A DNA stretch of 63,185 nt, filler included, from Rhabdomonas costata (lineage: Eukaryota): assembly GCA_019059605.1 (NCBI GenBank). It is 46 parts of 46 records of this genome, joined end to end, with 100 filler letters (N's around TTAATTAATTAA, not from the genome) between each part and the next. Parts side by side here need not be neighbours in the genome. Positions count along the whole stretch, not along the records: positions 15,139 to 16,414 come from JAHMHO010020972.1; positions 16,515 to 17,790 come from JAHMHO010020973.1; positions 17,891 to 19,166 come from JAHMHO010020974.1; 43 more parts are not named here. One strand, given 5' to 3'. Of this stretch, positions 2,316 to 63,185 are shown one piece after another. The notes below the pieces were generated by a model. The model saw only the letters and a list, made by a program, of their open reading frames with translations. It did not search any database and was not told the origin of the DNA. A program made the position numbers and the translations under genes. Position 1 is the stretch's first letter, and every line of letters begins with the position of its first letter.

Positions 2316-3158
2316 AGACAGTTTCCTTTTCTTAGACGGCATTCACGCCACCCAAGAAAAAGCAGAAATACAACAAAGCTTCGTCAGGGTATCAAACCGA
2401 AAAAAATGATTACACTCAGTAATGCTGTCATCATTGTATTAATTAAGGGAAGAGAAATGGGGAAGGTCTATGCAGCTTTGAAAGTAGCACAAATGGAATG
2501 GTGCAAGGGTGAGCAATACAGAGCTGAAAGCCAATCCAGGTGCAGAATCACGCAAGAAAGCTAATGGAGCTAGTGACACAGCAGCTGGATTGGCTTTCAG
2601 CTCTGTATTGCTCACCCTTGCACCATTCCATTTGTGCTACTTTCAAAACCACANNNNNNNNNNNNNNNNNNNNNNNNNNNNNNNNNNNNNNNNNNNNTTA
2701 ATTAATTAANNNNNNNNNNNNNNNNNNNNNNNNNNNNNNNNNNNNNNNNNNNNGTCCACTTTCTTGCAGCAAAACGGGCGGGATTTCATGAATCATCTAA
2801 CGTGAAATCACAATTGCTCAACTACAAAGAACTACAAAGGATGGACTCTCACGGAAACCCATTACTTTTAGTTTACAAACACTCTCTATTCGCACACCGC
2901 GGGCTTTAGAGGAACGCCCGCAGAGCGGCAAAAATGGACAGGCCTACAGAATTCCAAAACCAGTCCTACGGTCAGTGCAAAGGGAAGCAAATGAGAGACC
3001 CGTGTTGATGTGGAAGCTGTTATTTACCAGGTGAGGACCGAGGCCAAGGGTGAAGGTTCCTATGCTGAGGTGCAAAAGAGAGAGAAAGAGAAACCCATGG
3101 GGAGCAACCAAAGGGAGACAGGTCACACTTGACCCGTGATGCAGGGGAAGCGATTCAG

Positions 3159-7810: not shown

Positions 7811-9826
7811 TGTCGCAGTAGATAAGAAGTATCCTTCCACAAGAAGTGTCTTTCCAAGCCCGCCCGAAGACCTGGGAAAGATTATGCAAGAACCCCCACT
7901 GAGGCCGCCACCCAAACTGTTTCTGAAAGGAGACGGGACACGGTGACCCCAAGAAGGTCTTGTTTAGTTGGAAGCTCAATTCTTTGAAGAAAGAGCGATG
8001 GTTGGACGATAGTTGGCGATGTGTTTATGTCCCTCCCTCAGTCTGCTTGGTGTTGAGAAGTGCCATATAATTTTCCCTGCCGATTGCTCGATTTTTATGG
8101 CTCGGCTTTCAGGGCTTCTCTTTGCCATTAGGTTTGCTGTGGAGCACTCCCCACACCCCNNNNNNNNNNNNNNNNNNNNNNNNNNNNNNNNNNNNNNNNN
8201 NNNTTAATTAATTAANNNNNNNNNNNNNNNNNNNNNNNNNNNNNNNNNNNNNNNNNNNNCGTTGGGCGCTTTTGTGCGCGCCGCGTGCCTTTTCAATACT
8301 CTGGGGTTGAAAGGATTCTGCGGTTGTGGCGGTGCTTTTCTCGAGTAACTGAAAGTGTGCGTTGGCGTTCGCTGGGTGGATGAGGCTAGAATCAAGAAAG
8401 GTTTGCATTTTGAAGGGGAACACTGTTTTTCTTCGTCCGCTTTGTTTTCTATTTTCCTTTTTCTGGGGAATGTGTTTGTTGTTTATTTTTTCACTGTGGA
8501 AACATTAGCATTACAGTTTAAAAGGACTGCTGCTTCTGCGTTTATTTCCACTGCTACATTGTGGAGATTCTCTTTCACCAGGTTCATGTTGCTCATAGGC
8601 TGTGTTTGGATGACGATGATGAATGGGGAAGTGATATGTAAGCATTGCGAAACGGCGTCACACGGACGTCGCACGTGAGATCGATTCAGCTCTGTAAAAT
8701 TTGGGCCCCAACGTTGTTGCGAAAGACGATACACCGGATGGCTCTGGTGACATCCTTGTGGAAAGCAAAGTATTTTACTTTTTTTTATTAAATGAATGTG
8801 TTCGCCATTGAAGTTGCAGCAGCCTTGGCAGCAGGAGTTGACACCTTTCAGCGGCATACGAGGTCGAGCCGGTGCCCGCACCATGGGGGTGGAGGCCACC
8901 AGTCACTTTTCATGTCGCGTGGTTGGTTTTGCTGTGGACGGATGGGGCGGTGTTCAAAGATCCACGTTTGCCATTTGACTCCCTTTATTTTCGACTTAAA
9001 AGCTTTTCGGATCAAACCTTTCTGTCCGGTCCATTTAACACGGTTTTACTATAATTTCCTACATTCTTAATGCAAAACCACCCAAAAGGATCGGTTATTT
9101 TGACTTAGCGTTGGTTTGAACCTGGTATGCAACTGGTATGTAATCATCCTTTGCCTGCCAGTTCCGACTCTCAGGACACGCTGCATGCTCCCCATCGTGC
9201 GTACTCCCGTAAGAACCAATCACCCTTCCTTGGTGGCTCCAAAAACACATCAACAACCCGATATGTCCTCATCTGAAGCTCTTCATTCTGCACTGGCAGC
9301 CCCCGAGTTGTTTTTCTTTCTGAGTTGTTTTCTTGTTTTTCGTTTTTGCTTTTTCACTTTTTACGTTTTTCCGCTGAAAATGACCGACAGTGTCTCCGAG
9401 GTCAGTGCTCCCGCGAGCTCCACTTCCAGGCAAGGGGGTATGATCTTTGGCGTTGCTCCACACTTGTAGCGCGCAACCATTTTGCGGACCATTTTCATAT
9501 TCAGACGTATATAACATTATCTGTGCCCCACAAAANNNNNNNNNNNNNNNNNNNNNNNNNNNNNNNNNNNNNNNNNNNNTTAATTAATTAANNNNNNNNN
9601 NNNNNNNNNNNNNNNNNNNNNNNNNNNNNNNNNNNGTTGGTTGTTCTCCTTTGGATTTGGTTAAAAACCTAGATTTAAAATCTCCGCTTTCGAAACGAAT
9701 CAGACAGATGGAAGATGGGAGATGCAGTCGAAAGCAGAGATTTTAAATCTAGGTTTTTAACCAAATCCAAAGGAGAAAAAGCAAGCCAAAGGACAGCACA
9801 CCGCAGGCTAGAAAACGAACACATAC

Positions 9827-11618: not shown

Positions 11619-12386
11619 GTATTTGGCTTCAGACCCCTCATGGAGGCCCTTCGCTCTTTGATCTCCAAATCGTTTCTCTTGTGGAAAGGGAAATTTGGTT
11701 GCCCTGGTTTTCTTGATCTCGGTATGCCATTGCTCTTCGCTAAGGACCAAAGGACCCTGGGGGTGGAGTAGCGGTCTTCAATGGTTTCGGGAAATGCCTA
11801 ACAGTTGTGCTTTGTTAACCAGATAAGGTGACATTCTTGCTGTGCTCTGCAGATTCGTTTGTTATCGTGGGGGGAGGGGGTTCAAGGGGCTACCCACAAA
11901 TAATGTTGGATGGGAATTGAAATGAAGTTGGGCATTGACGTTTGACGAGCCTGTGTAATTGGTTAAGTTTTGAAGGAGACCAGTGTCTGGCCGCTGCCGG
12001 GGCGCGCGGCTCAGGCGGCTGGATACGTTGAGAGGGTCTGTGTCTGTGATGCCGTGATTGTATTCGCTTCTATTCAAGGGAATTTCAAAGTTCTCAGCAC
12101 CATCAAAAGAATCCATGTTTAAACAAAAACGCACTGTGGGGAAGTGTGGGTGGATAGTCCATCGATGTGTTGCAGTGCCTTTTTGTTTAAACATGGATTC
12201 TTTTGATGGTGCTGAGAACTTTGAAATTCCCTTGAATAGAAGCGAATACAATCACGGCATCACAGACAAAGACCCTCCCAACCAACNNNNNNNNNNNNNN
12301 NNNNNNNNNNNNNNNNNNNNNNNNNNNNNNTTAATTAATTAANNNNNNNNNNNNNNNNNNNNNNNNNNNNNNNNNNNNNNNNNNNN

Positions 12387-14539: not shown

Positions 14540-15773
14540 GTCTGCGGCCTCGCTCTCTGTGGAGATGCTTTTGGATATCTGCATCCTGGATTTGGCTGCA
14601 ATGGGGCCTTTAACCATCGAAACTCCCATTTGCTGTATTTGCCTTGAACGTTTGAACGTTATGGGTTTTACGTGAGAGTTTTTTATCCACTGTGGCTGCG
14701 TCGATGTTGAGGAAGGTGGATTTTATTGACTTCTGAGCGAATCGTTCAGAAATGCAAACCCAACAGTTCCCGCTCATAAACACAGAAACAGTACATGTTG
14801 GCAAGTCACACGACAAGGAAAGCAATAGTGCTCACAGGGTTTCGATCAAGCAGGGCTGCGTGTGTGTGCATTGTTTAACAATGTGAAGATGTAAACAAAT
14901 GGCAGGGGTGAGGATAAAAAACTCTCACGTAAAACCCATAACGTTCAAACGTTCAAGGCAAATACAGCAAATGGGAGTTTCGATGGTTAAAGGCCCCATT
15001 GCAGCCAAATCCAGGATGCAGATATCCAAAACCCACCCNNNNNNNNNNNNNNNNNNNNNNNNNNNNNNNNNNNNNNNNNNNNTTAATTAATTAANNNNNN
15101 NNNNNNNNNNNNNNNNNNNNNNNNNNNNNNNNNNNNNNGGGTGTGGAATTACAAAAGCCGAAAATGCGCAAAAGTACGCAGAAAAGAGAAGAAAAGAGAA
15201 GCGCAGCGATCATCATCTTCCTCCCCCATCTTCCCAGATCAAAAGATGATGATCGCTGCGCTCCCCTTTTCTTCCCTTTTCTGCGTACTTTTGCGCATTT
15301 TCGGCTTTTGATCTGGGAAGATGGGGGAGGAAGATGAAAACATTTCCGCCCGAGTTTAAGTAAAACTATGAGGGCTTTGCACCTTGGTGTGTGGGGGTAG
15401 GCGTGCTCGTTGTCATAACCTCTGGGATGTCGGCGCAAAAGAAGCGTGGGGGCTAAATGTCACCCATTTAGTCTAGTCGCAGGCCTGACATCTTCGTGTG
15501 TGCTTGTGGGTGAGGGACTGGGCTGCCTGTGGTGCGGTTTTCTGGTAACCTTTCAGGATTTTGTTGAGTGACTTGTGGTCTAGTGCCAGCACCCATATGC
15601 TTCAGGCGTCTTAGGCGAGGGATAGCTTTTCTTTCATTCATCGGTTCCATGCTTTCAACGCACAGACATATTCCGACGCGAATAAACAGACACAACTGTG
15701 TCCCTGAGTCAGAACGAGGCAAGTGCGTTGCAACCCCTCACCCCTTTCTCTGTTCTGTTTCTTTCCGGCGCAG

Positions 15774-15992: not shown

Positions 15993-16635
15993 GTGGGGGT
16001 GGGGGTCTGGTATCACCCAGCGGAAGGCGTGAGCTGAATGCGGGTGTTCCAACAGGAACCGTCTCCATCCCGATAGTGATAGTAAAGAGGACCAGGCCAG
16101 TGGCGACCGGGTGGAGCCTGGGCGTTGCCTGGGAATCGTCTGTCCCCAACCCCCAACCCAAAAAACATATACGAGCGCAGTTCCAGGCAGGCATCTGCTT
16201 TGGGTGGGTGAATGACTGGAGTTTGACTTAAATTTCTAATTTTGTGCGGTTTTAATACCTCAAGGCGCGTATCTCATTGTTTGTGGTGGGGGAAGAGGTC
16301 CCTACCGCTGTCAGTCATCCCGTTTGCGTTCTGTTCACCGTGGACAGTTCAGGTTGGCAAATAGCTTATTTGGGAACGCACTCCACCACCTCTGAGCGGC
16401 ATCAAACCCCACAANNNNNNNNNNNNNNNNNNNNNNNNNNNNNNNNNNNNNNNNNNNNTTAATTAATTAANNNNNNNNNNNNNNNNNNNNNNNNNNNNNN
16501 NNNNNNNNNNNNNNGGTGTGGTGTGATCTTTCTTAATTTCATAAATTTATTATTTAACTCATATTTATTATCTTCTTTTTTAAATCAATTACATTATCAA
16601 TTGTTCTTATTTTACTATATACTGACAAAATAAAA

Positions 16636-17352
16636 ATGAAAAAATATATAACATTCTTAGAAACATGTAATGAGAGATTACGTATTGACAGATTATCAAA
16701 TAAAAACATGATCATACCATTTAAAAGTGTTAATGATAGTAAAATAATAAATACAAAAAATAATAAAAGAATGTTATTATTGGAAGAAAAACGTGAATTA
16801 ACAGATCAAGATAAGATATATTTAAAGTCAGTATTTAGTAAAATAAGAACAATTGATAATGTAATTGATTTAAAAAAGAAGATAATAAATATGAGTTAAA
16901 TAATAAATTTATGAAATTAAGAAAGATCATACCATCGTTAAAAGAACTAAAGAATATGATAGGATTAACAGAAATAAAAAAATGAGATTTTTGAACATAT
17001 ATGTTATTTTGTACAAGATTTAAATAATAACAATGAACGTATGCACATTGTTATAACTGGTTCGCCTGGTGTAGGAAAAACAGAACTTGCTAAAATTATC
17101 GGTAAAATTTATTTAAATTTGGGATTTTTAACATTTGATAAATTTATTATCGCCAAACGATCTGATTTAATAGGTGAATTTTTAGGAACAACAGCAACAA
17201 AACCACAAAAAGTAATAGATAATGCACAAAATGGAGTATTATTTATCTATCTGTGAAATTTATTCATTGGGCAATAATGAAAAGAGAGATTCATATGCAA
17301 AAGAATGTATAGATACAATAAACCAAAATTTAACAGAAAATAGAGGTAAATT
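16636..17352 (+). pseudogene. Disrupted CbxX/CfxQ/SpoVK-type AAA+ ATPase of giant-virus (Imitervirales-like) type
   Basis: Read across 3 frameshifts: KLRKIIPSLKELKNMIGLTEIK/NEIFEHICYFVQDLNNNNERMHIVITGSPGVGKTELAKIIGKIY...KRSDLIGEFLGTTA...NGVLFI/CEIYSLGNNEKRDSYAKECIDTINQNLTENRGKF. Intronless and extremely AT-rich. Walker A intact, Walker B broken by a TATC duplication. Confidence 0.8.
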
Positions 17353-17460
17353 TTCATCTTGATTCATATTATATGTAAGTATACATGTTTGAATAGCTTT
17401 ATATACAATAGCAACTAAAGATGAAATTGCAATTAGAAATGCTCCTGATTCTAATAGCAT
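17353..17460 (-). CDS. Short AT-rich ORF start with a hydrophobic N-terminus, truncated at the junction with the ATPase
   Basis: MLLESGAFLIAISSLVAIVYKAIQTCILTYNMNQD, with the same AT-rich composition. It collides head-on with the truncated ATPase. Confidence 0.35.
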
Positions 17461-17529
17461 ATAAGATATTCATTCATATAATTATTACTAGTATGGATGT
17501 CATTTAGATATAAGTTCAAATAATTGTAA

Positions 17530-17537
17530 AAAATTGA
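17530..17537 (+). promoter_or_regulatory. AAAATTGA motif, identical to the Mimiviridae early promoter
   Basis: Exact octamer in AT-rich intergenic DNA of the virus-like segment. It could arise by chance at this AT content. Confidence 0.35.
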
Positions 17538-18015
17538 ACTTTTATTTTATTACATCTTATATATTTGTATTGAATCACTTCGTCTCAGTGGTTGTTTTTC
17601 TTTGCTACTTTTGCAATCCATCACTGATCAAATGCAACGGCTTCCATTCAATTCTGGTGTTGATTTGCTTCATTCTTCTTCCCCTGCCTACAACAAATGG
17701 TCCCCATGACGAGTTTGACTCCCAGGGATGAACATCCAGGAGTTGAACTCGTCATGGGGACCATTTGTTGTAGGCAGGGGAACAAAAAACNNNNNNNNNN
17801 NNNNNNNNNNNNNNNNNNNNNNNNNNNNNNNNNNTTAATTAATTAANNNNNNNNNNNNNNNNNNNNNNNNNNNNNNNNNNNNNNNNNNNNGTTGTGGGGT
17901 GCTCTTCGACGTTTGCGTTGCTTTTGCCGAAGAAAGGAATGGTTTCTTGCTTGCTTGCACTGGCCCACCATATGTTTCGCTTCTTGCCCTCGTGACTCGT
18001 GACTTGTGGGGGCAG

Positions 18016-19019: not shown

Positions 19020-19276
19020 GTAAGCCGTACCGCATATGCACGTAGGCAAGCTTCTCTTGATCGCTAGACCCTGGGAGGATGCACTGTTTTGTATGCCACT
19101 ACCCTGGCCAGCTACCCTGCACGTCACCAAACCTCAACAGCCGATGCCATTTCAAGACCAGCAATGNNNNNNNNNNNNNNNNNNNNNNNNNNNNNNNNNN
19201 NNNNNNNNNNTTAATTAATTAANNNNNNNNNNNNNNNNNNNNNNNNNNNNNNNNNNNNNNNNNNNNGGGGGTTTTT

Positions 19277-20530
19277 GTCGAGCGCCTGGCGAGCCAACCC
19301 TTCGATCTGGAACAAGGGCCCCTGTTGCGGGTCAGCCTGCTGAAGCTTGCCGACGACGACCACGTGCTGGTGGTCGCCATGCACCACATCGTCTCGGACG
19401 GTTGGTCGGTGCCAATCATGATCGAAGAACTGATCGCCCTCTATCAGGCCCATGTGAATGGAACCGAGGCCAACCTGCCGGCTCTCTCCGTTCAATACGC
19501 CGATTACGCCGCGTGGCAGCGCCAATGGATGGAGGCCGGCGAACAAGAACGTCAACTCGGCTACTGGAAAGACCAACTGGGCACCGAGCAACCGGTACTG
19601 CAATTACCCGCAGACCGCCCGCGCTCGGCGGTGCAAAGCCAGGCAGGTGCCGACTGCGAAATCCTCGTCGAACCAGCACTGGCCAGGCAGCTCAAACAAC
19701 TGGCAGCGCAGCACAATTGCACGCTGTTCATGGTGCTGCTCGCCTCGTTTCAAGCGCTGCTGCACCGCTACAGTGGCCAGGCGCAGATTCGCGTCGGGGT
19801 ACCGGTGGCCAACCGTACCCGCGCTGAAGCAGAACGCCTGATCGGCTTCTTCGTCAACACCCAAGTGCTTCAGGCAGAGATGAACAGCCAGACGCGCTTC
19901 AGTGATTTACTGGCGCACGTCAAGGACGCGGCCCTTGGCGCCCAAGCTCATCAGGACCTGCCATTCGAGCAACTGGTGGAAGCCCTGCAACCGGAACGCA
20001 GCCTGAGCCACAGCCCGCTGTTCCAGGTCATGCTCAACCACCAATACGAAGACGCCGGCGTTGCTCCGGCGATTGCGGGCCTGAAGGTCAAGAACCTGAG
20101 CTGGGAACGCCGCACTGCCCAATATGAATTGACCCTCAACACCATCGAAAACGAGCAGGGCCTGAGCGCCACCCTGAGTTACGCCACCGACCTGTTCGAT
20201 CGGACAACCGTCGAACGGATCACCGGCCACTGGCTGAACGTGCTGCAGGCTGTGTGCCGTGACCCCGCCCGCCCCATCGGTGAATTGCCGTTGCTCAGCG
20301 CCGCAGAGAAGCAGGTGCTGCTGCAGGACTTCAACCGCAGCCACTACCACGGCGGCCACCTTGAATGCGTTCATCAATCCTTCGAAGCCCAGGCCGCCCG
20401 TACCCCGGACGCCGTGGCACTGCTGTTTGGCGAGCACACCCTGAGTTTTGGCGAACTCAATCGCCGGGCCAATCGCCTGGCGCACAAACTGGTGGAGCTG
20501 GGGGTCAAGCCCGAGGTATTGGTGGGCATT
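19277..20530 (+). CDS. Bacterial non-ribosomal peptide synthetase fragment (LCL condensation domain + start of A domain), Pseudomonas pyoverdine-synthetase-like
   Basis: The whole contig is open and intronless. Motifs: PFDLEQGPLLRV, MHHIVSDGWS (HHxxxDG), QYADYAAWQRQW, IGFFVNTQVL, HQDLPFEQLVEALQPERSLSH, and A1 core LSFGELNRRANRLA. Confidence 0.95.
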
Positions 20531-20964
20531 GACCCCCCACCCNNNNNNNNNNNNNNNNNNNNNNNNNNNNNNNNNNNNNNNNNNNNTTAATTAATTAANN
20601 NNNNNNNNNNNNNNNNNNNNNNNNNNNNNNNNNNNNNNNNNNGTTGGTGTGTTTGGTGTGGTTGTTAATTAGAAGAAGTTGAAAACCCCCAGTTGATGGT
20701 CTTTGGATCCTAAGTTGACATCTCCTTGAGAGTCAGCGTGTGACAGTTGCATAAGATTTTGAAGTAATTTTCCGAGTCTGAAAAATGCACAGAGTTTTGC
20801 GAGTGGAGCGTAAAAGCAGACGAGTTTTCAGATGAGTCTTTGGATGATTTGTCAGGGACAGCTTTGATCACCATTGCCATTCCAGATAGACTTGATAGAG
20901 AGGTTTGGGTTCTTGGGAGAGTTTCCAGACCCTCCACCCATCAACCACTAATGTTCTTGCCGTT

Positions 20965-21806: not shown

Positions 21807-22049
21807 GTCCATGTCAAATTTTATACTTTCTATTTTCCTTTTACTCCTTTCTTTTCAGTCCCTCCCTGTTTGTTTCTTTCTTTATTTCTTTCTTTATTTA
21901 TTTTCAACCCCCACACCCNNNNNNNNNNNNNNNNNNNNNNNNNNNNNNNNNNNNNNNNNNNNTTAATTAATTAANNNNNNNNNNNNNNNNNNNNNNNNNN
22001 NNNNNNNNNNNNNNNNNNTGCCAATAAACATCTGCTGGGTCGCTGTTGC

Positions 22050-23294
22050 ATGCATGTCGACCTTGAGGCGACCTCATCCCAGTCAGACTCTACCCGATTC
22101 CCCTGCGTTTCTGCGGAGCCTCTTGCCCTGTCCACCTCCATAATCAGACCTGGGCAAAGCTCGCCTCATCTGCCCACGGATACTTCGGAACCTTGCTTCG
22201 CTTTCCGGCAATCGCGAGTGCCTTCACAACGCGGAGGTGACCCGTCAATGCGCTCCACTGCGGGATCGCCTCGCATTCCTGCTCCAGTGGCTGCATGGAG
22301 CAGGTCCGTCGCAGTGCCCTCGCCTGCCTGCCGGGTCCCGATGCTGGTGGTCTTCACCGTGCCCACCTTGGTGGTGTTCGCTGCGGTATTCGTTTTCGCA
22401 TATTACCTCATCGTGGGTACGGCCACCAACTCTATACGTGACACGGTTGTTCTACTCAACAATATCTCCGCGGCGAATATCAAGCGGGCTGCGGATGGGT
22501 TTCTGCTCAGCAAAATGGTGATGCTAGGGTCTCTTCAGCCCGTGGCAGGCGTGGTGAAACGTTCTGCGTTGACCACCGTGATGTCGACGACACTGCTGGA
22601 CGACAACAGTTTGAAAAGCCTAACAGTGGTTTACTCGTGTGGGTCGACTGTTATGGTTACTCGTGCCAACCTCAGCGGGAACCTCAGCGGGAACCTCAGC
22701 GGGAACCTCAGCGGGAACCTGAGCGGCAGCTCTCCGCTGTTGGTGGGAACGAGTCCATGCAATGGCACGACGATGGCCTTTCGACAAGTTCGGTCAGATG
22801 GTTCGATTGCGGAACCCGTTGTTGCGACGCAGGCATTCGCGGCGGGTTCTCAGCCATGGTATGAGGCTGCGCAGCAGCTGTCGGATGGCCGCTTTGCCCT
22901 GACAGGTCCATGGGTTGACCCCCTTACAAACCGGGAAGAGTTTTTCCTGAGCTGTCCCCCCGATTTTGACGAACCCAGCATTGTGCCCACGATTCTTGGT
23001 GTGAGTTTTGGGGTGGAGTCGCTGTTTGCAACTGTGAAGGAGGCCTACGAGATGCTGCACACGACGGGGGTACTTCTTCTGATGGATGACTCGAAAAACG
23101 TGCTACTTTCATCATCAGCGAAGGTGCCTGCAGCCGCGGACATAGCGCAGGTCAGCCTTACGACGACAAGCGCTGATGTGCATGTTGCCACCTTGCCGAG
23201 TTTTGGGAAACCCTTCATCCTTGTCGTGGCCATCAATGGGCAAGGCATGGTATCACCTGGCACCGGGCTGTATGCCGTAGTTATCGTTCCACAA
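22050..23294 (+). CDS. Membrane receptor N-terminus: transmembrane helix + dCache-like sensor domain (3' truncated)
   Basis: Intronless ORF over 410 aa with TM MLVVFTVPTLVVFAAVFVFAYYLIV. Cache hallmarks: SQPWYEAA, TGPWVDPLT, ILGVSFGVESL, VLLLMDDSKNVL. Confidence 0.75.
22668..22727 (+). repeat. In-frame 12-bp tandem repeat x5 encoding (NLSG)5
   Basis: AACCTCAGCGGG x4 + AACCTGAGCGGC. Confidence 0.97.
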
Positions 23295-29323: not shown

Positions 29324-32300
29324 TTTTAGGAGGGGGGGGGTGGCACGATGGTGGCGTATTTTTTCTCTTTTTGAAAAAAGCAAATAAGAGAAGTGGACTT
29401 GGGCGCTGTTCGCGGCGAAGGTGGTGACCGAGAGGAAGGGTGATAGCGCAAATAAAAGGCCAAAGCAAAGAGGCACCTTCAAAAGAATGACAGCACAAGA
29501 CAAACACAAAAGCAAAGCGCAGCGGTCCGCAAAAGATGTCTAGAGACAGAACTTCGTTGGCACCAAAATCCGGCAAAATCAATGTCGATGTGGAGTGTCC
29601 AAGGATCCAGGTCTAACCCGGGTATGGGATCAATGCGGGCATCTCTGACAGTAAGCGCAGCCACGGCTATCCTTGACACTTTCCTACCTCCCCCAAACCT
29701 TATCCATTAAAAGGCAAAACCATTGTCCACAACACGTTGCTTTGTACTTTTTCATCACAGTGCGTGGAAAGCCCACCGAGAAAAAGGAGTGAGAGATCGG
29801 GCGGATCAAAAACCACTGCTGAGGAGTTGGACGACGGGGGCTCGCAGACAACAGGCAGGCTGGGGACAACAGGCAGACGCAGTTATTGAGGAAGTGGTGA
29901 TGGTCTGAGCTGGAAAAAAAAGCGCACAAAAACGGCGCAAAGTGGAAGATAACAACGCAAATTCCATTTCTCTGCTTCCTGCCGCCCCTCCACTGGCCAG
30001 CTCTCTTCAGGAAACAGGACGTGTACGAGGTGGGGGGACTCTTATTCTGGAGGGCGAAGAACGTATGGGAGAGAGGAGGGAAGGGGGCAAGGTGGTGCAG
30101 GATGAAGGCAGAAGACAGGGCGGCGGCGGCGGCGGCGGCGCCCTGTCTTCTGCCTTCATCCTGCACCTCCCCCNNNNNNNNNNNNNNNNNNNNNNNNNNN
30201 NNNNNNNNNNNNNNNNNTTAATTAATTAANNNNNNNNNNNNNNNNNNNNNNNNNNNNNNNNNNNNNNNNNNNNGGGGTTTTGGGTTTACTGTGAATGGGA
30301 GCCAGTTTCAAATGGATTTATGTGCCTTGCATTCACGTGCCTTTGCAAAGGGAAATTTGAGAGCCTCCTGACAAACGCAGAAAGGCGCTGGGCAAGAACA
30401 TCCCGAGTTCCACAACGGCGTGATATGAATGACGACGTCAAACGTATACAACCCGGTACTACTGCACTGAAGTTATATGAGGATGATTCCCTCTCCTTCG
30501 TTGGGAACACCAGGTTGGGTGAACTCGCCCAGATATCTTGGGTGGAGTTCGTTATGGATCAGATTGGGTTGAGATTGTTTTCAAAAGGAATTTGAAGGAA
30601 GCCATTGACTTCCGCAGAAGCGGTAGTGTGCAACAATGGATTTAACAAGCACAAGAACAACGGCAGAAGCAGCAGACATATGACGCCGTTATATGCGCAC
30701 GCCGCTGTTGAGCAGATAACTCGACCCCCAAAAAAAACTTACCCCTCAGATATCTACATCACCAAACAGTGTGCAAGTGCAAGATGAGCGTCGATTCTTG
30801 CAAGATTATTTCCAAAAGTCCAAGGCAAAAGGCAGACGCAGCACCGACCTGGGCGGGAACAACTTCATTGGATGTAGCACAGCCCATTCGTCGTGACCCA
30901 CGTAGCAAATGAGATCAAAAAAAGTGAGAATGAATTGCAGAAAGCAAAAGAATCACACAGGCATGTTCTGTACCAGAAACCAAATGTGGGGAAAGGAGAC
31001 GCAAAATCAGACCAAGGCCAAATCAACCCAGAAACTGGGGACAACTGGAGAACCTGAGTCCCGCTCAGATCACTTTCTTTCTCTGATCTTCCTCTGATTA
31101 TGGACGCTTCCCTTATCTCCGGAAGAGTGCGGTTTCCGTTTTTTCGCCTCCAACACGCCGGCAGTGCTGAAAGATAGTTCCAATTCCGCAGTGATGCAGG
31201 ATAAAACAGGATGGTATGACGGTCCGATGCATTTTTTGGGGGTAATGACGTTTAACAGCTTGCTTAGGTTAAACCGCTAACGGCTTGGTACGAGACACCA
31301 GACATTTGCATTGGGGTATTTTTTTCCTCGGTATTTCAGGTAATTTGGAGCGCTGACTTCGGTGGCTTTGCTCGGGAAGACGACGAACGGTTCCCAGGAG
31401 ATAAAGGAACAGAGTTGTTTTAGTGACGAAGGAGAGCGCGGGAACGTTGCCCAGGGGTACATCCATTAGCATCAAAACCGACCCTTGTGCAAAGGACACA
31501 CTATGCCGACACTATGCAAGTTTGGTTCCAGACTCCAAATCAACGCTAANNNNNNNNNNNNNNNNNNNNNNNNNNNNNNNNNNNNNNNNNNNNTTAATTA
31601 ATTAANNNNNNNNNNNNNNNNNNNNNNNNNNNNNNNNNNNNNNNNNNNNGTTTGTGGGGAACCTAGAGGCAAAAAAACGCGCTTCGGGGCTTAACTCGAT
31701 CATTGTGGGATGCTCTCATTTCAGACCTGGTCAGTGATCAATTTTTGCGTTGAATAAACTGCTGTCTTCGGTTCGACGGAGAACAATTTGACGTGCGGTA
31801 GTTGGTTTTTAGCACCAGTTTTTCGATCAACGCGGGCGCATATTGCCTGCCCCATCACATATTGCCTGCCCCATCCCCTTTCACCACTTTGTCCTTATCT
31901 CTCCACACTCCGCAGGATTTCAATTCTTTTAAGCGAGAATGGAAACAGAAGAATCGTAAAAAGAAAGGATTTCAAGTTCCCATGATTACGGGGGCAAAAT
32001 TTGCAGGGAGGTCCGGTTGAGGAGAGGTATGAACGCCCCCTTCCCCAAAACGATTTGCCCAGTCTTTTTCTTTCCGTCACACATCTCGGTTTTATCAATT
32101 ATGCATTTGCTCAGCCCTTCTCTTCTTTTCTCCCCTTGCGTTCAGCTTCTGTTTTTATCATTTGCCTCTACTTCTCGCCACACCTTTTTTTTACATTGCT
32201 ATATAGCCAGTTTCAGCCATTCTGGAGTGTAAAACTTGGCGTATCAAAACACGCCTGAAAGGCAATGTGCATCTGGTACAATTTACACCTGGAAAATTTG

Positions 32301-38991: not shown

Positions 38992-41900
38992 GGCTGTGGG
39001 CTGCAGGCCATCAGTGCAGTGCGTCCCTCCTCGCGGAACGTCTTCGGCGTCCCGCGAGCTGCTCCTGCCTCCCCGTCCACCCGCTGCCTAAGCTTCCTTG
39101 TTGTTTGTTGTTTTAGCACTGCCGTTTTGCTTTGGTGTTGTTGAAACCGTTTATATCTCTGGCGCGGCAGCAACATATATGGCCAGTGATTACTGTTCGC
39201 TGTCCTTGAATCGTGACCCGCTTGTTTGCTTTTCTCCTTGGGATGTATGGCTTGGCTTATTGGACAAAAACGATGAACAGTGTCCGCGCAATCGCGCGAT
39301 TCTAACAATGGTTGTTTGCGGGCAACGAAACCGCGGGGGGAAATCCAGCCCAACGCTCATTGAGTGGGTGGTTATCTTGGCACCAAAGTTCCATTTTAAA
39401 GACATGGAAAGGAATGAAAAAGTTCACTTTTATAAAAAAGATAGTAGAATATTTATAATCTTTTTTGTGTAAAAGCAGGTTCTTCATGCACTGAGCACTG
39501 TTTTGTTGGACTAATCGTGCACCTATGAGCTTCTAATGCTCCTGCCATGCATTTTAATCGATTTCTCGAAAAAGTGCAAGATTTCTTAAACTTAGATCGA
39601 TAGATTCGCCATTCCACCATCTATCAACTGGCAGGATATTAAGGCAGTTGTAAGCTTAAGGTTGAAATGCTGCGATACTGAGTTTAATCGCGTAATTGGA
39701 TTGTTCCGTTCACTGTCACGGATGCTTGAGTAGATTTGCTGATGTAATTTCTTGCTGTCAAATGGAAGGCGCCTCGCCAGAGATATAAACGGTTTCAACC
39801 ACAACNNNNNNNNNNNNNNNNNNNNNNNNNNNNNNNNNNNNNNNNNNNNTTAATTAATTAANNNNNNNNNNNNNNNNNNNNNNNNNNNNNNNNNNNNNNN
39901 NNNNNGTGGTGGGTGTGTTTGGTGGGTGTGTGTGTGTGTGTGTGTGGACAAGAGGCTTCCCCATTTTCTGTTGTGTTTTTGTATGTGCTGGGCGCGCTGC
40001 TCTTTCAGTCGACACTACAATGGAGGACAGGTCGAGGGAGAGAGGAAATCTTCTGGCATCCGCAGCACCGACACAGCGTAACAGGCACACTCACCGTACG
40101 GGGAAGGGGAACAAGAAGCGCGTATGTTCTTGGGGAGAACAAACAGACCATACGCACACAATAGGGCCCTGAGGAATGCGGATTATTGCACAAGTCGAAA
40201 TCCCCCCCGAATGTACTTTCTCGGCTCGAGTGAAGAAAAATCACGCAAAGCACAGCTCACATTGCAGCCCGTTCCAACTGCAGGTAACCCCCTCCACGAA
40301 CACATGGACAAAGCCTCTTGCCTATTGCCTTTGCCTTTCCAAAATTTCAGGGCAAAAAGGTGCCGCCAAAAAGTCAGGATTGGGACTTACAGGGGAGGGG
40401 GGGGTGTTGAGGAATACACAAAGAAGGTCTTCGTCGTTAATTACACACGCACCGCTGCTTCTTGTGCCTTTGAGGCGCCCGATTTCCAATTTATTTGCTC
40501 CTCGTGTGCGACGTCTTTCTCTAACGTTCTCGAGGCATGTGCGGCTGCAGTTTTTTTTTCCACTTTCACTTTTGTCATGACACGAGCCATTTGCACGAAG
40601 GTGGACAAAGGGAAGCTGGAGGGGTCATCTGAGCTGACCCAAGCGGAGCTATAAAATGGGCCTGAGCGGAGAAACAGGCCTTCAGGGGCTAGCTTGCACT
40701 CAAAATAAATACTGATGACCGCAATTGACTGACAAGTCCAGGCGCAGTACGCATAAGGGTAAGGGGGGTGGGGAGACCGGATTTCCCAGATGTCCTTGAG
40801 GAAGACATGCTTGGTCTCGGCGGAATTCATACGCAAGCACCACCCGAACGAAATTTCTTCAGGTCGCAGTCGGAGCACAGTGCCACAAAGCGAGCCTGAA
40901 CAAACGCACCCCAAGCACAGGTAGCGTGGATCGCCCTCCAACACCCCTTAAAGTCTTCTTCTGAACGGAAAAAACAGGGAAGTATCGGTCGAGAATAACA
41001 GAAGATACGTGCGTTTCCCTCCAACCCGATGAAGACCCCTTCCCGACACCTTTTGGACATTCATCCTCGTATACGACCTGTTGATGGCGAGTAGGCACTA
41101 TCCAAGCCAAGTGTGTGTGTGTGTGTTGGCTGTTGCCTGGTTGCCTGGTTGCTTGGTTGTTGGTGACCACTCTGGACTGACNNNNNNNNNNNNNNNNNNN
41201 NNNNNNNNNNNNNNNNNNNNNNNNNTTAATTAATTAANNNNNNNNNNNNNNNNNNNNNNNNNNNNNNNNNNNNNNNNNNNNTTTCTTTAACTTGGTCGCC
41301 CTTTCTGCGTGGGTCCATTGGTTGTCGGCTTCGGGTTCGGCTTCGCAGGGTTTATAGGGCGAGGCAGTCTCCAATGGAACTTTGCCCAAAGAACTTGCGC
41401 TCCACAACCATTTCAGTGCTCAGCACAAAGCAATCCCTCGGGGGAAACTTTCTGGCGAGGAGCCATACCAGTGCGACCTGGGGCACCCCAGGCTCACGGG
41501 AAGCCCCAGCAGGGCCTCCCTCACCGCTCCCACCCGCGGGTCCGTCGCCCGGTCAGTGGCGAGATATACCGCACCACATCGCCAGCGCCCCACAAAGTCC
41601 CCGACCTGTGAGCCCAGGCTCTTCCCAGAGACGGCCAGGAACCGCAGCCTCAGGTGAATCGCACATACAACCTGCCACAAGCCCCACACAAATGTTTGAG
41701 GAACAGTTGAAGGAAAGGAAATTTTGGCGTAGGTGCTTTTTGAGGACCCCACCCCACCCCATTAACGTGCTTTTTACGGACACAAGGTGTGGACGAGACA
41801 TTCAGCCTGTGGGGTCCATAAATGCACCGTAAATGGGGAGGGAGTCCCCATAACGCAGCGCTGATTTAATTTAGGGGGTTTTTTTTTCTTTTCTTATTGT

Positions 41901-42716
41901 AAGCTCGCTTGAATCAAACGCAGCCCTTAATCACTGCGAGTTCCCTGCGTTTTTTCAGTTTTTGCAGTGGAGATAGAGACTTCCCTGGGCGGGTTCCCCA
42001 TTACTTGTTTGTTCTTTTGTTCACCACGGTATCCGAAACACGAAGAAGCAGGAGGAGAATTCCCGGTCTACTCCTGGGCAAGGAGGGAAATTGTGACCAC
42101 GAGGGGGATGGTGGGCACAAAATAAAGAAGAGTTGAAAGAAAGGAGAGTACCTGGAAACGTTCCCTTTCGGTGGTGTACTGGTTCGTTTGTACAAACCCT
42201 CGAAGACAGACATAAACAACCGGATGCGCGCTAATCAGCTATTTGGATTTTAATCTCCTTGTCTTTACTCACAGCCCTGGTGTGTTTCGGTTGATGTCAT
42301 GCAGTGTACTCCAAGGTGCTTGGATATTCCAGAGGGCAGACGCCCCACAAGCCGGCACATGCACAGAAAAGGACACCCCGCCTTTGGGCTGGTTTTTTGG
42401 CAATTAAAAGAGAGCAGAACCCAACCTCTTATTTTTTGAAAGCCCGTTGTCTCTCGTCTGCCCTGTCCCGCTGAGTTGAAAATCCCCCCTACGCATCAAG
42501 CATACCTGCATACACACTCCCTAGATGAAGTCGACCTGCCTCGTTTACCACAACCCCNNNNNNNNNNNNNNNNNNNNNNNNNNNNNNNNNNNNNNNNNNN
42601 NTTAATTAATTAANNNNNNNNNNNNNNNNNNNNNNNNNNNNNNNNNNNNNNNNNNNNGTGGGTGGTTCCATTGCCCCCTCCCTGCAGAACAGGTGCGTAA
42701 TCATGCTCTTGTCGAC

Positions 42717-43448
42717 CTTCCTTCGAATAATAACGAACCTGTTCTGAAGGGAGGGGGCAATGGAGCCCCCCTCCGCCATCGTCGCGACGACCGTAAAGCT
42801 GGGGCCCATCTTCAGCATCCTGCCCTCCAGCAGAAGCCTGGGGTTCTTCTCGTACAGGTTATTCGTGCCCTCGATCGCACTGGCAGGGGGCAGGTGGAGG
42901 TTCTTCAGCAGCAGAGTCTTTCCATTGGTGTAAGCCCTGGTGGCGGGGCCATCGACCCACGAAAAGCCTCCCGTGGGGGACGGCAGGACTGCCCCCAGGA
43001 GGTGGTCAGTGTCGGTCTCTGGGGTGAGCTGGACATACTCCAGCTTCCCCGGGTCATTACCCATGTACTCCCAAAAGGCCAGTAGGAGCTCTGTCTTGCC
43101 CGACCCCGGGGGCCCAACTACCAGCGCGGGTTGCCCACAGCGCTGACACTGCAGCAGCACCTTCCACGCCTCTTCGATGGCCTTGGTAATGACAAAGGTT
43201 CGACGATTTTCACCAGCGCAAAGCTCAGCTTTACGGGAGGCCTTGTTGTCGTCTGGTCGGACGAACACGAAGTTGGAGGTGCAGAAAGGGGTGCCCTTAT
43301 GCGGCAGGTCAGCAGCCTGCGTCGCACTGCTGGGCACCTCGCTTGTCACGGGGCACTTTTCTCGGGCTGTGCTCTTTTTGTTCTTTTCCATCTTCTTATC
43401 CTCGATCAGCTTTCTGGCTTGTTCGCGTGCCTCTGGCTCGGAGAAGAC
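42717..43448 (-). CDS. Midasin/dynein-related AAA_5 ATPase module, one long exon
   Basis: FVIT...PALVVGPPGSGKT (Walker A)...QLTPETDTDHLLG...FSWVDGPATRAYTNGKTLLLKNLHL...FTVVATM...SLQNRF. Walker B reads KN instead of DE. Confidence 0.8.
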
Positions 43449-59713: not shown

Positions 59714-61544
59714 GTAGGAGCTCCGCCTCCACCCCCACCCCCTCATGGAGAATATCATTGTCTGAAAGATTTGCTGCACCCCAGGCTGAACTAATTGCAT
59801 CCCGTAGCCAGTCCAAGCGTGAATACAGGATTGGCCATCAAACCCTGCAAGTAAAAAGGGTTCATGAAGGGTAAGGGTTTTTCGGTCAAAGGCGATGACA
59901 AGTTATACTCACTATTTTCAAGTGTCTTCTGCGTTCAAGGTACAAAACCCACCCTTGCGGCACCCCAAGGCTGGGGTGTTGCATCTGTAGTGCCTTGCAA
60001 ATTGGCGCACTCGAATCGCGGGTCATTGCGATTCACCAGAGCCAAATAGGTGGTATTATTGGGCTGATTCCGAACCGGCTGCGTTTACACGCGGTCCGTG
60101 ACGACCAGGAGTTGGCCCCAAATCCATTTCACCATACAAATTCAAATCTGCATCTATCTGGCAACAGCTTCCATCTTGCACACTTCAAGCAAAACATGAA
60201 CACGACAACAAGCGCCGCAGTGTAAAGGAATGCAAATGGGGGAACTCGCAGACTCAGCCGAACTCACGTCACCGCGGATCACGTCACGAACTCACGTCAT
60301 CACGGAGCCCAGAAGCAACTAAAGCGTTAAGCAGCGCTGGAGGAAGCCATTGGGGGAATCGATGATCGCATTGGCAGTAACCCCTTCATAAATCGTGAGA
60401 TCTGGAGGTATCCCTCGATAGAAGAGGCGGGATCTNNNNNNNNNNNNNNNNNNNNNNNNNNNNNNNNNNNNNNNNNNNNTTAATTAATTAANNNNNNNNN
60501 NNNNNNNNNNNNNNNNNNNNNNNNNNNNNNNNNNNGTGGTGGGTGTGTTTGGGGGTGTGGGGAGAGGGCCACTTAGTCATCAAGGTGAGCCGCATCTACG
60601 CTTCCGGTTCGGGTAGTGTGGTGGTAGGGATTGGCGAAGGGATATTCTTTTCAGGAGCGTGGGTGACAACTTTTGCAGTCGACTTTCGAATAGCTGTGAG
60701 ATACTTATTTGGATGATGTTCAGTGGTGCATATGAACAATTTAGAAATTAGAAGTGAAACCAACCATGCAAACGGAAACCACATGTGAACGGGGACTGTG
60801 TTAAAGGTAAAATTAAAATCGGGTTTTCCGCTGGGGAAGCGAGTCTCTATCGCTTTACCTGGCTTCTTGCCAGAGCCCAAAAGAAGAGAATTCAGCCGAG
60901 GACATGGTGCATAAATCGTCCAACTCATGGCGTCGTGTTCTCTGTCAAAAACGCGGATAGAGGGCACAACCACACGGCAAAGTTCGAATTTTCAAGTCCA
61001 TTACACCGGCGAGGCTCGGTAAAAACCACACGGTGGCAAGGAGGCGGATGGCGCGCAGGCTTCCAATTCTTTACTCTATGTCTTGTTGGTATTGTCCCAC
61101 GTTGTCGGTGGAATTGGAAAGCGAAATGCGGTGCAAAACGAAGCTGAAGGTTCTTTTTTTTAACCATTGATATCCGACGATTGGCGTTAAGCGCCCACCT
61201 CTAATGTCTCAGTGGGAGCACTGTCATTCTATTTTAAGGTGGTGAGAAGTGTATGTATTTTATGCATTGCCCGAGAGTTGGGGCTACTTGGAGCGTGGGA
61301 GAGGGGTTGGGAGATATCCGCTCTGTGTGGCGGAGAGCGTGCACGCAGTGCACGTGCTCCCAAAGACAGGTTAAAAGAGAGGTTTTGCAGGGGGCCAGGA
61401 ATTCGTGCAGGGAAGAGGTTATGGTTATGGGGCTTGGAACCCACGCGAATCTCCTTCTTTTCTCTTCACAGCCTTCGTATACTCGCTGACGAAAGAGAGA
61501 TAATATCGTCATTTCCACACATTGGTTTGCACTTTTCGGTTTCT

Positions 61545-62044: not shown

Positions 62045-63184
<1,140 letters not shown>

Positions 63185-63185
63185 A

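What the first reader, a model, noticed from the sequence alone, without database searches (positions are those of the whole stretch)
16515..17790. Decayed giant-virus-type AAA ATPase joined to host-like DNA: candidate endogenous NCLDV relic
Seen: 16515-~17575 is far more AT-rich than any other contig and has no introns. It encodes a CbxX/CfxQ-type ATPase broken by two A-run frameshifts (~16872, ~16975) and a 4-bp TATC duplication (~17244-17251) that also leaves C in place of the Walker B Asp. It carries AAAATTGA at 17530, then switches abruptly to host-like composition. The fold-back copy at 16524-16617 has the same frameshifting A6 run, so that lesion predates the fold-back. Known: ATPases with L-x-x-MIG, MH-x-VI-x-G-x-PGVGKT, RSDLIG-x-x-LG and YSLG..RDS..KECID-x-x-NQ-x-L-x-E occur in Mimiviridae-related viruses, and AAAATTGA is their early promoter. 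Inference: lesions outside homopolymers suggest a pseudogenised integrated viral fragment rather than a live co-amplified virus.
Basis: partly seen in the sequence, partly recalled or inferred. Interest (0 to 1): 0.75.

Follow-up and report, generated by a model that had tools for sequence, protein, structure and literature searches.

The report
Broken giant-virus ATPase in chimeric amplicon
A 1.3-kb contig holds just over half of a giant-virus-type ATPase gene, broken in three places and joined to host-like DNA, but the whole contig is one rearranged whole-genome-amplification product, so integration into the host genome is plausible and not shown.

Summary
Contig 16515-17790 is the only AT-rich contig of 46 (GC 0.26 against 0.44-0.62). 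Bases 16627-17357 are colinear with about 57% of a SpoVK/CbbX/EccA-class AAA+ ATPase. This fragment is 72-78% identical to proteins on long AT-rich metagenome contigs, and 35 of 79 IMG/VR relatives are named GVMAG. The relatives place AAAATTGA 31-60 nt upstream of ORFs. The gene has three frame breaks (A6 run, A7 run, 7 nt in place of the Walker B Asp codon); 0 of 158 environmental copies are split. GC jumps from 0.22 to 0.45 at 17576.

The single AAAATTGA at 17530 is no more than chance. New here: 31 of 46 contig starts and 32 of 46 ends carry G/T-only primer remnants of a degenerate-primer PCR amplification. The target contig has them at both ends, so it is one amplicon. It also has a chimeric fold-back at each end. 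Junctions and lesions lie 100-270 bp apart, which also fits a patchwork of template switches.

Verdict: giant-virus origin is secure. Decay is probable. Integration is unproven: endogenous relic about 0.45, amplification artefact on free viral DNA about 0.35. Reads could not be mapped. Interest is low to moderate.

The parts
16515..16525 (+). G/T-only run at the contig's 5' end, read as the remnant of the K10 part of a degenerate amplification primer
   Evidence: 31 of 46 contigs start with a G/T-only run of 8 or more nt, against 73 of 1748 interior 30-mers. Primer 5'-TGTGTTGGGTGTGTTTGGKKKKKKKKKKNN-3' is quoted in the Methods passage of PMC10781638.
16519..16626 (-). Outer arm of the left fold-back, an inverted copy of 16827-16934
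   Evidence: 108 nt, 106 identical. One mismatch lies in the primer-derived end. Both arms carry the same A6/T6 run.
16627..17357 (+). Internal fragment (about residues 35-272 of about 412) of a giant-virus-type SpoVK/CbbX/EccA-class AAA+ ATPase gene, read in four frame pieces
   Evidence: Profile match to positions 60-304. Pieces P0004, P0001, P0002 and P0003 align colinearly with P0005-P0016. blastn identity to relatives is 68-76%, and every match ends at or before contig base 843, which is window 17357.
16872..16877 (+). Frame break 1: A6 run, reading frame shifts from +1 to 0
   Evidence: (one-base gap against 5 relatives).
16976..16982 (+). Frame break 2: A7 run, reading frame shifts from 0 to +1
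   Evidence: (one extra base against 5 relatives).
17059..17082 (+). Walker A (P-loop) GSPGVGKT, intact
   Evidence: Columns G176 to T183 are invariant in A2.
17248..17254 (+). Frame break 3: seven bases stand where the Walker B Asp codon is expected (net +4); the Asp is lost
   Evidence: four extra bases and at least 2 substitutions in the block that reads AT[TA]GATGAA in all 5 aligned relatives. D239 is invariant in A2.
17358..17575 (.). AT-rich stretch (GC 0.211) of unknown origin. It is viral-like in composition and has no homology to the ATPase or to 161 related loci. It holds AAAATTGA at 17530-17537.
   Evidence: no profile or tblastx match; no 215-nt window of the other 45 contigs is below GC 0.326; motif at chance level.
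17576..17790 (.). GC 0.451 tail with host-like composition. No coding signal and no match to other contigs or to IMG/VR.
   Evidence: Only 0.075% of 215-nt windows in the 15 closest viral loci reach GC 0.451, whereas 13% of windows in the other contigs lie at or below that value. Searches found no match.
17673..17788 (.). Right-end fold-back: arms 17673-17722 and 17739-17788 with a 16-nt loop. The outer arm ends in an A/C-only run (17781-17790), the complement of the primer's K10 part.

Best explanation
The contig carries a dead internal fragment, about 57%, of a giant-virus (Imitervirales/Mimiviridae-like) AAA+ ATPase gene. In its intact relatives the protein is about 410-450 residues. It has an N-terminal long helix, a small helical bundle, a CbbX-like AAA+ core and a lid. 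By inference it works as a hexameric ATP-driven protein remodeller; its viral role is unknown.

The copy here cannot work. It lacks both gene ends, its frame is broken three times, and the Walker B Asp that holds Mg2+ for ATP hydrolysis is gone.

The most likely origin is a decaying piece of giant-virus DNA resident in the genome of the amplified eukaryote, that is, an endogenous viral relic. On that reading the switch to GC 0.45 DNA at 17576 may be its border.

What is shown: viral family membership, the lesions, the composition switch, and the two artificial fold-backs. What is inferred: that the lesions predate amplification, and that the 17575/17576 joint exists in the cell.
For: - Family: the 91-aa core piece is 72-78% identical to P0005-P0011, which lie on contigs up to 490 kb. 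Of 79 IMG/VR loci with relatives, 35 are named GVMAG.
- In the relatives' loci, 193 of 1649 ORFs have AAAATTGA in sense within 150 nt upstream, and 130 of these 193 lie at -60 to -31. This motif is a Mimiviridae hallmark according to a passage of PMC6163669.
- Neighbouring genes include asparagine synthase (8 of 78 ORFs), kinesin, myosin and HSP70, and an intein-bearing ribonucleotide reductase.
- In the tree the window nests inside the family, next to P0009, P0011 and P0005.
- Decay: there are three frame breaks and no Walker B Asp, while 0 of 158 environmental loci have the gene split over frames.
- Three other contigs of the same assembly carry open frames of 425, 425 and 380 codons with no break.
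- The window violates 3 of 30 columns that are at least 95% conserved; only 6.2% of 242 intact members violate as many.
- Both fold-back arms share the A6 state.
- Flank: the tail's GC 0.451 is reached by 0.075% of windows in the closest viral loci but is ordinary for the other contigs.
- A neighbouring contig encodes a midasin-like protein, so a eukaryote is present.
Against: - The contig is a single primer-to-primer amplicon with two certain chimeric fold-backs, so further joints may be artificial.
- The seven events (joints at 16626/7, 17357/8, 17575/6 and about 17722-17738; lesions at 16872, 16976 and 17248) lie 100-270 bp apart. That spacing would suit a patchwork stitched from short heat-made fragments. 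Out-of-register re-annealing in A runs and at microhomologies could then produce exactly these lesions (inference).
- Two of the three breaks are in A runs, and they affect 2 of the 4 runs of 6 or more in the fragment.
- Substitutional decay is weak. There is no in-frame nonsense codon. The end branch is 0.86 against a median of 0.44, which is not an outlier.
- PCR-type amplification makes about 10 times more errors than MDA (passages of PMC4138190).
- The tail is called 'host' on composition alone. It matches no other contig.
- Bacterial-like DNA is also present in the assembly (an NRPS open frame).
- No reads or whole assembly could be examined.
Confidence: 0.45

Rival explanations
1. Free giant-virus DNA (infecting, attached or ingested) was co-amplified with the cell. 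Degenerate-primer PCR amplification on heat-fragmented, multi-copy AT-rich template stitched short pieces together. Homologous but out-of-register switches made the three lesions, and non-homologous switches made the fold-backs, the break at 17357 and the joint to unrelated DNA at 17575.
For: - Primer remnants lie at both ends of this contig and at 31 of 46 starts and 32 of 46 ends overall. The primer and the heat-fragmentation protocol are quoted from a Methods passage of PMC10781638.
- Terminal fold-backs occur in 8 of 46 contigs by a strict rule, and in more by a loose rule. This contig has two.
- Events are spaced 100-270 bp apart.
- Two of the three breaks lie in A runs.
- Amino-acid conservation is close to that of intact members.
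- The inverted-chimera mechanism with 2-21 nt microhomology was described for strand-displacement amplification (abstract of PMC1855051).
Against: - Three frame errors plus an altered catalytic codon in 731 bp is far above the reported error levels.
- 3.7 kb of open frames in other single-amplicon contigs show no break.
- Joints between different molecules are the minority class in the one study read, though that study concerned MDA, not this chemistry.
- The stitching origin of the indels is my inference. No call tested it.
Confidence: 0.35
2. The lesions are real but lie in a viral genome (a decaying paralogue or a defective virus), not in the host chromosome. Only the joint to GC 0.45 DNA is an amplification chimera.
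For: - The lesions look real by the arguments given above.
- The contig is demonstrably chimeric.
- One relative locus (L011) holds a second, partial copy of the gene, so extra copies do occur.
Against: - None of the 158 loci shows a frame-split copy.
- The gene looks single-copy in each locus examined. Only 20-kb flanks were seen.
Confidence: 0.15
3. The gene is cellular: a bacterial SpoVK/CfxQ, a plastid or nucleomorph CbbX, or a mycobacterial-type EccA.
For: - The nearest named families are SpoVK, EccA and CbbX.
- The best fold match of an intact relative is CbbX, with TM 0.71-0.74 normalised to the target.
Against: - Scores of 59-70 bits for the fragment and 112-164 bits for full-length relatives fall far below the cut-offs of 423-467.
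- Identity to CbbX is about 26%, against 72-78% to the viral-type family.
- A motif scan of 185,579 prokaryote species found one relative, at 32% identity.
- The N-terminal helical region is shared only with the viral-type family.
Confidence: 0.02

Closest known systems
Unnamed SpoVK-like AAA+ ATPase family of metagenomic giant viruses (P0005-P0013; loci L003-L161, 35 of 79 IMG/VR loci named GVMAG)
   Same: - 72-78% identity over the AAA core, and 55-62% over all 228 aligned columns.
- The same N-terminal helical region and the same motifs: MIG, MHIVITGxPGVGKT, RSDLIGxxLG, YSLGN..RDS..KECIDTxNQNLTE.
- The same low GC.
   Different: - The window copy lacks about 35 N-terminal and about 140 C-terminal codons.
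- It has three frame breaks and no Walker B Asp.
- All 158 environmental copies lie in one frame.
CbbX, red-type Rubisco activase (PDB 3SYL, 3SYK, 3ZUH)
   Same: Best structural match of the intact relative P0005: Foldseek E 2e-16, TM 0.71-0.74 normalised to the target. Sequence E-value 2e-25. Classical AAA+ core plus lid.
   Different: - About 26% identity.
- 112-122 bits against a cut-off of 459.
- The viral family has an extra 140-residue N-terminal coiled-coil and helical region.
- No Rubisco context.
EccA1 (type VII secretion AAA ATPase, PDB 9LUR) and SpoVK (TIGR02881)
   Same: Best sequence hits among solved structures and NCBIfam models: EccA1 at 5.5e-33, and SpoVK at 149-164 bits for full-length relatives.
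   Different: All scores are far under the equivalog cut-offs. The family has no TPR N-domain of the EccA type and no secretion or sporulation context.
Endogenous giant-virus elements in protist and plant genomes
   Same: A viral-type gene with inactivating lesions next to DNA of host-like composition, as described for endogenised giant viruses (PMC10120064, PMC4083422, PMC12210455; only the search listing and the start of each abstract were seen).
   Different: Published cases rest on long contigs or long reads that tie viral DNA to host DNA. Here the link is one 1.3-kb chimeric amplicon.
Whole-genome-amplification chimeras
   Same: Inverted fold-backs with a short loop at amplicon ends, as in the inverted-chimera model of Lasken and Stockwell (abstract of PMC1855051).
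   Different: That study concerned phi29 MDA. The primer remnants here point to degenerate-primer PCR amplification, for which I read no chimera statistics.

Membership tests
Giant-virus (Imitervirales-type) SpoVK-like AAA ATPase family | High identity and colinearity over the N-terminal helical region and the AAA core | tested here: met
   72-78% identity over 91 aa. The four pieces align colinearly. Profile positions 60-304 are matched. The window nests in the family in the tree.
Giant-virus (Imitervirales-type) SpoVK-like AAA ATPase family | Giant-virus genomic context | tested here: inconclusive
   Met for the relatives: GVMAG names (35 of 79), AAAATTGA at promoter position, and typical neighbouring genes. 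No capsid or polymerase marker was looked for successfully (records not held). The window contig is too short to carry any context.
Giant-virus (Imitervirales-type) SpoVK-like AAA ATPase family | Single open reading frame of about 410-450 codons | tested here: not met
   Three frame breaks and both gene ends missing. In relatives the median is 442 codons and 0 of 158 are split.
AAA+ ATPase (Pfam PF00004) | Score over the gathering threshold; Walker A present | tested here: met
   28.2 bits against a cut-off of 21.2 for piece P0002. GSPGVGKT at 17059-17082.
AAA+ ATPase (Pfam PF00004) | Walker B hhhhDE with the catalytic Asp | tested here: not met
   Seven bases replace the Asp codon at 17248-17254. 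D239 is invariant in A2.
CbbX / CfxQ (TIGR02880) | Score over the equivalog cut-off of 459 bits | tested here: not met
   58.6 bits for the fragment. Intact relatives score 112-122 bits.
SpoVK (TIGR02881) | Score over the equivalog cut-off of 423 bits | tested here: not met
   70.3 bits for the fragment. Intact relatives score 149-164 bits.
EccA (TIGR03922) | Score over the equivalog cut-off of 467 bits | tested here: not met
   61.2 bits for the fragment. Intact relatives score 131-145 bits.
Endogenous viral element | Virus-derived sequence with signs of decay | tested here: met
   Caveat: an amplification origin of the lesions is not excluded.
Endogenous viral element | Physical continuity with host chromosome, confirmed independently of one amplicon | not testable with these tools
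No genome is held. The contig is one amplicon.
Endogenous viral element | Flank identifiable as host DNA | tested here: inconclusive
   Composition fits the other contigs. There is no sequence match to any of them and none in IMG/VR.
Amplification chimera | Primer remnants at both ends and inverted fold-back joints | tested here: met
Amplification chimera | The joints at 17357 and 17575 are absent from the native DNA | not testable with these tools
   This needs reads, a second amplification or unamplified DNA.

The most novel reading that the evidence does not exclude
The fragment is a true endogenous relic of a marine Mimiviridae-like (Imitervirales) virus in the nuclear genome of an uncultured eukaryote, and 17575/17576 is the real virus-host border. 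That would give a direct record of a past infection, and so a virus-host link, for a viral clade known almost only from metagenomes.
Probability: 0.4. Interest if true: 0.4.

Novelty: new member of a known kind. Interest (0 to 1): 0.25.

Why it matters
If the relic is real, it ties one clade of marine giant viruses, known mainly from metagenome bins, to a particular eukaryotic host lineage. It also adds one more case to the growing list of giant-virus endogenisations.

The practical lesson is of more immediate use. The contigs of this assembly still carry amplification-primer remnants, and many end in chimeric fold-backs. Any virus-host or gene-fusion claim drawn from a single contig of this assembly therefore needs independent support.

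Tried and rejected
- Whole-assembly screen for giant-virus markers: no genome is held. Within the window, only the target contig matches the 161 viral loci by tblastx.
- Capsid search in the long IMG/VR records: the records are not held. I used Pfam on flanking ORFs instead. The top-25 list showed no capsid or polymerase family. The remaining 72 of 97 families were not displayed.
- The search of protein representatives: the list was swamped by multi-domain AAA proteins. It was only useful for showing that just P0009 exceeds 52% identity among the 150 listed.
- A tree against named SpoVK and CbbX sequences: no named cellular sequences could be obtained. The only outgroup was three AAA domains of one Planctomycete protein, so placement against SpoVK and CbbX rests on scores and identities.
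- Origin of 17358-17575: there is no match by profile, blastn or tblastx to the ATPase or to the flanks of relatives. I looked for an inverted copy of a nearby gene part and found none.
- The G/T-only 12-mer at 17588-17599, just after the composition switch, was considered as an internal primer scar. I rejected it as evidence: 0.30 such runs are expected per 215 nt, and no constant primer part lies upstream.
- AAAATTGA as evidence in the window: rejected. In addition, only 9 of 139 relatives' ATPase genes have the motif upstream.
- Alternative genetic codes and programmed frameshifting were considered on reading the sequence. I dropped them because relatives read in one frame under the standard code.
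- My earlier working label of 'phi29 MDA' was replaced.
- Paper searches for SpoVK with giant virus and CbbX with Mimiviridae found 0 papers, so I found no printed description of this viral family in the held library.
- The search of earlier findings returned nothing.
Full report
**What the window is.** The 63,185 bases are 46 separate contigs of 1272-1277 bp, joined by runs of N around TTAATTAATTAA. The finding covers one whole contig, 16515-17790. Its GC is 0.259; the other 45 have 0.44-0.621.

**Anatomy of the contig.** The parts, from left to right, are:
- 16515-16525: a G/T-only run.
- 16519-16626: the reverse complement of 16827-16934, 106 of 108 identical.
- 16627-17357: the ATPase fragment, GC 0.226.
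- 17358-17575: an AT-rich stretch of unknown origin, GC 0.211.
- 17576-17790: a tail of GC 0.451.
- Within the tail, a second fold-back with arms 17673-17722 and 17739-17788.
- 17781-17790: an A/C-only run at the very end.

A change-point scan puts the composition switch at 17576 with z = 7.0, the largest in the window. Other contigs show switches of z = 5-6.6.

**The gene.** The fragment reads in four pieces: frame +1 16636-16875, frame 0 16878-16979, frame +1 16984-17247 and frame +2 17255-17353. A profile built from 13 relatives matches positions 60-304 across these frames and nothing beyond 17353.
- The core piece passes Pfam AAA, 28.2 bits against a cut-off of 21.2.
- Its best NCBIfam matches are SpoVK (70 bits), EccA (61 bits) and CbbX (59 bits), all far under their cut-offs of 423-467.
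- A DNA alignment with five relatives shows one base too few in the A6 run at 16872-16877 and one base too many in the A7 run at 16976-16982.
- It also shows four extra bases plus at least two substitutions in the block that reads AT[TA]GATGAA in all five relatives. This block encodes the Walker B Ile-Asp-Glu.
The Asp is lost either way.
- Homology stops at about 17353-17357, where relatives continue with LCIIAGYK.
- The copy therefore covers about residues 35-272 of about 412. It has an intact Walker A. It has no Walker B Asp and none of the C-terminal 140 residues. The terms Walker A, Walker B and arginine finger are used from general knowledge.

**Whose gene it is.**
- The 91-aa core is 78, 75 and 72% identical to P0005, P0006 and P0007. 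In all, 147 proteins scored E <= 0.001 among 206 candidates. Most of the 120 listed are about 300-450 residues long, and some lie on contigs up to 490 kb.
- An IMG/VR scan gave 79 loci with relatives, 35 of them on contigs named GVMAG. That name stands for giant-virus metagenome-assembled genomes according to the abstract start of PMC13524828 in a search listing.
- A metagenome scan found relatives in 566 of 594 motif-matched stretches.
- A motif scan of one genome from each of 185,579 prokaryote species found a single relative, at 32% identity.
- In the 161 fetched loci, AAAATTGA stands in sense within 150 nt upstream of 193 of 1649 ORFs. Of those 193, 130 lie at -60 to -31. Density is 0.78 per kb upstream against 0.11 per kb in coding sequence. 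A high prevalence of this motif in early promoters is listed as a hallmark of Mimiviridae (one passage of PMC6163669).
- Flanking ORFs include asparagine synthase (8 of 78), kinesin (3), myosin (2), HSP70 and topoisomerase, and an intein-bearing ribonucleotide reductase and an XRN-type exonuclease next to the closest JGI locus.
- For the FastTree tree, 279 rows were collected. Twelve were dropped for less than 70% fill, and the rest were thinned at 85% identity to 199. Three bacterial AAA domains were added as outgroup, giving 202 rows. The window sits inside the family beside P0009, P0011 and P0005, in a starred set of 95 rows.
- Giant-virus origin is secure. A cellular SpoVK or CbbX origin is excluded for practical purposes.

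**What the intact protein looks like.** An AlphaFold model of P0005, built with a 13-row alignment, has mean pLDDT 83. It shows a long N-terminal helix (4-58), a small helical bundle (88-140), an AAA+ core (146-303) and a lid (309-401). Its best solved match is CbbX, with Foldseek E 2e-16 and TM 0.71-0.74 normalised to the target. Vps4, FtsH and proteasome-type AAA proteins follow. By sequence the best solved relatives are EccA1 and CbbX. I infer a ring-forming, ATP-driven protein remodeller. Its target in the viral cycle is unknown. I found no paper on it (0 papers each).

**Is the damage unusual?**
- All matches in 158 of 161 environmental loci lie in one stop-free piece. The single locus with two pieces (L011) has a second partial copy on the other strand, not a frameshift. 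So 0 of 158 are split.
- In the same assembly, open frames of 425, 425 and 380 codons run through three other contigs without a break.
- Against that, substitutional decay is slight. The window violates 1 of 21 columns conserved at 98% or more, and 3 of 30 conserved at 95% or more. As many violations are seen in 6.2% of 242 intact members.
- There is no in-frame nonsense codon.
- The end branch is 0.86 against a median of 0.44, within the range of its clade.
- Two of the three breaks hit two of the four A runs of six or more in the fragment.

**The new point: one amplicon.**
- 31 of 46 contigs start, and 32 of 46 end (read in reverse complement), with a G/T-only run of at least 8 nt, usually 10-11 nt. 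The background is 73 of 1748 interior 30-mers.
- Several contig ends keep the constant part ...GGGTGTGTTTGG before that run.
[quoted passage not shown] A related primer appears in a passage of PMC10168098.
- The commercial kit names I associate with this primer are recalled and come from no call.
- The target contig has such runs at both ends, so the whole contig is one primer-to-primer product.
- The mismatches near the outer ends of fold-back arms are positions where the primer's G/T letters replaced template bases.
- Terminal fold-backs occur in 8 of 46 contigs by a strict rule, and in a few more by a looser rule. Only the target contig and one other have two.
- Their form, arm-loop-arm with the outer arm ending in the primer, fits the inverted-chimera model of strand-displacement synthesis (abstract of PMC1855051).
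- PCR-type amplification was measured at about ten times the error rate of MDA (passages of PMC4138190).

**Weighing.**

*For a real relic:*
- The lesions are many for any reported error rate.
- Both fold-back arms share the A6 state.
- The gene is never broken in free-virus assemblies.
- The tail's GC is reached by only 0.075% of 215-nt windows in the 15 closest viral loci, yet is ordinary for the other contigs (13% lie at or below it; none lies below 0.326).
- A eukaryote is present, shown by a midasin-like frame on contig 42658-43933.

*For an artefact:*
- Every feature rests on one amplicon with two certain artificial joints.
- The seven events are 100-270 bp apart, as if the product had been stitched from short fragments.
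- With a multi-copy viral template, out-of-register re-annealing in A runs or at microhomologies could make such lesions. This is my inference and is untested.
- The shared A6 state shows only that the lesion predates the fold-back, not that it predates amplification.

My odds are:
- endogenous relic, 0.45;
- free viral DNA with amplification-made lesions and joints, 0.35;
- real viral pseudogene with a chimeric joint, 0.15;
- cellular gene, 0.02.

**AAAATTGA in the window.** The motif is present at 17530-17537. However, there are 5 copies in the window against 4.4 expected. No ATG follows at 31-60 nt, and only 9 of 139 relatives' ATPase genes carry the motif upstream. It carries no weight.

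**Novelty.** Endogenous giant-virus fragments in eukaryotic genomes are well described (PMC10120064, PMC4083422, PMC12210455; search listings only). At best this is a new member of a known kind, and it is not yet shown to be one. Supplementary files of papers were not consulted and do not bear on these claims.

Noticed in passing
window, ends of most contigs (for example 39906-39935, 60536-60562, 20643-20666, 63164-63185): Contig ends keep untrimmed amplification-primer sequence: the constant part ...GGGTGTGTTTGG followed by about 10 G/T-only bases. This affects 31 of 46 starts and 32 of 46 ends, so the terminal 10-30 bases of many contigs are not genomic.
   Followed up: yes
window 2477-2647, 9637-9784, 12027-12282, 15152-15310, 30091-30170, 42660-42771: Terminal arm-loop-arm fold-backs lie at contig ends in 8 of 46 contigs by a strict rule. 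These are amplification chimeras, and they would mimic inverted repeats or hairpins to a reader.
   Followed up: partly
window 19268-20542 (+): One open frame of 425 codons spans a whole GC 0.62 contig. It encodes a non-ribosomal peptide synthetase condensation domain followed by the start of an adenylation domain. This is bacterial-like DNA, or a eukaryotic NRPS, in the same assembly.
   Followed up: partly
window 42660-43526 (-): A 289-codon frame with a dynein-type AAA_5 domain is 29-32% identical to animal midasins. It marks eukaryotic nuclear DNA of a lineage far from animals.
   Followed up: partly
window 22020-23294 (+): A second 425-codon open frame spans a whole contig and has no Pfam match.
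   Followed up: no
L082-L131 flanks (for example L082:211-3537, L082:5439-7808): In the giant-virus relatives the ATPase often lies near an asparagine synthase (8 of 78 flanking ORFs). Kinesin and myosin motor genes, HSP70 and an intein-bearing ribonucleotide reductase occur in the flanks.
   Followed up: partly
L011, first 250 bases, minus strand: One giant-virus locus carries a second, partial copy of the ATPase's C-terminal part at the locus edge. The family can therefore be duplicated within a genome.
   Followed up: no
L162 / G001:C704: The only prokaryote relative found is a 1132-residue Planctomycete protein with three tandem SpoVK-like AAA domains.
   Followed up: no
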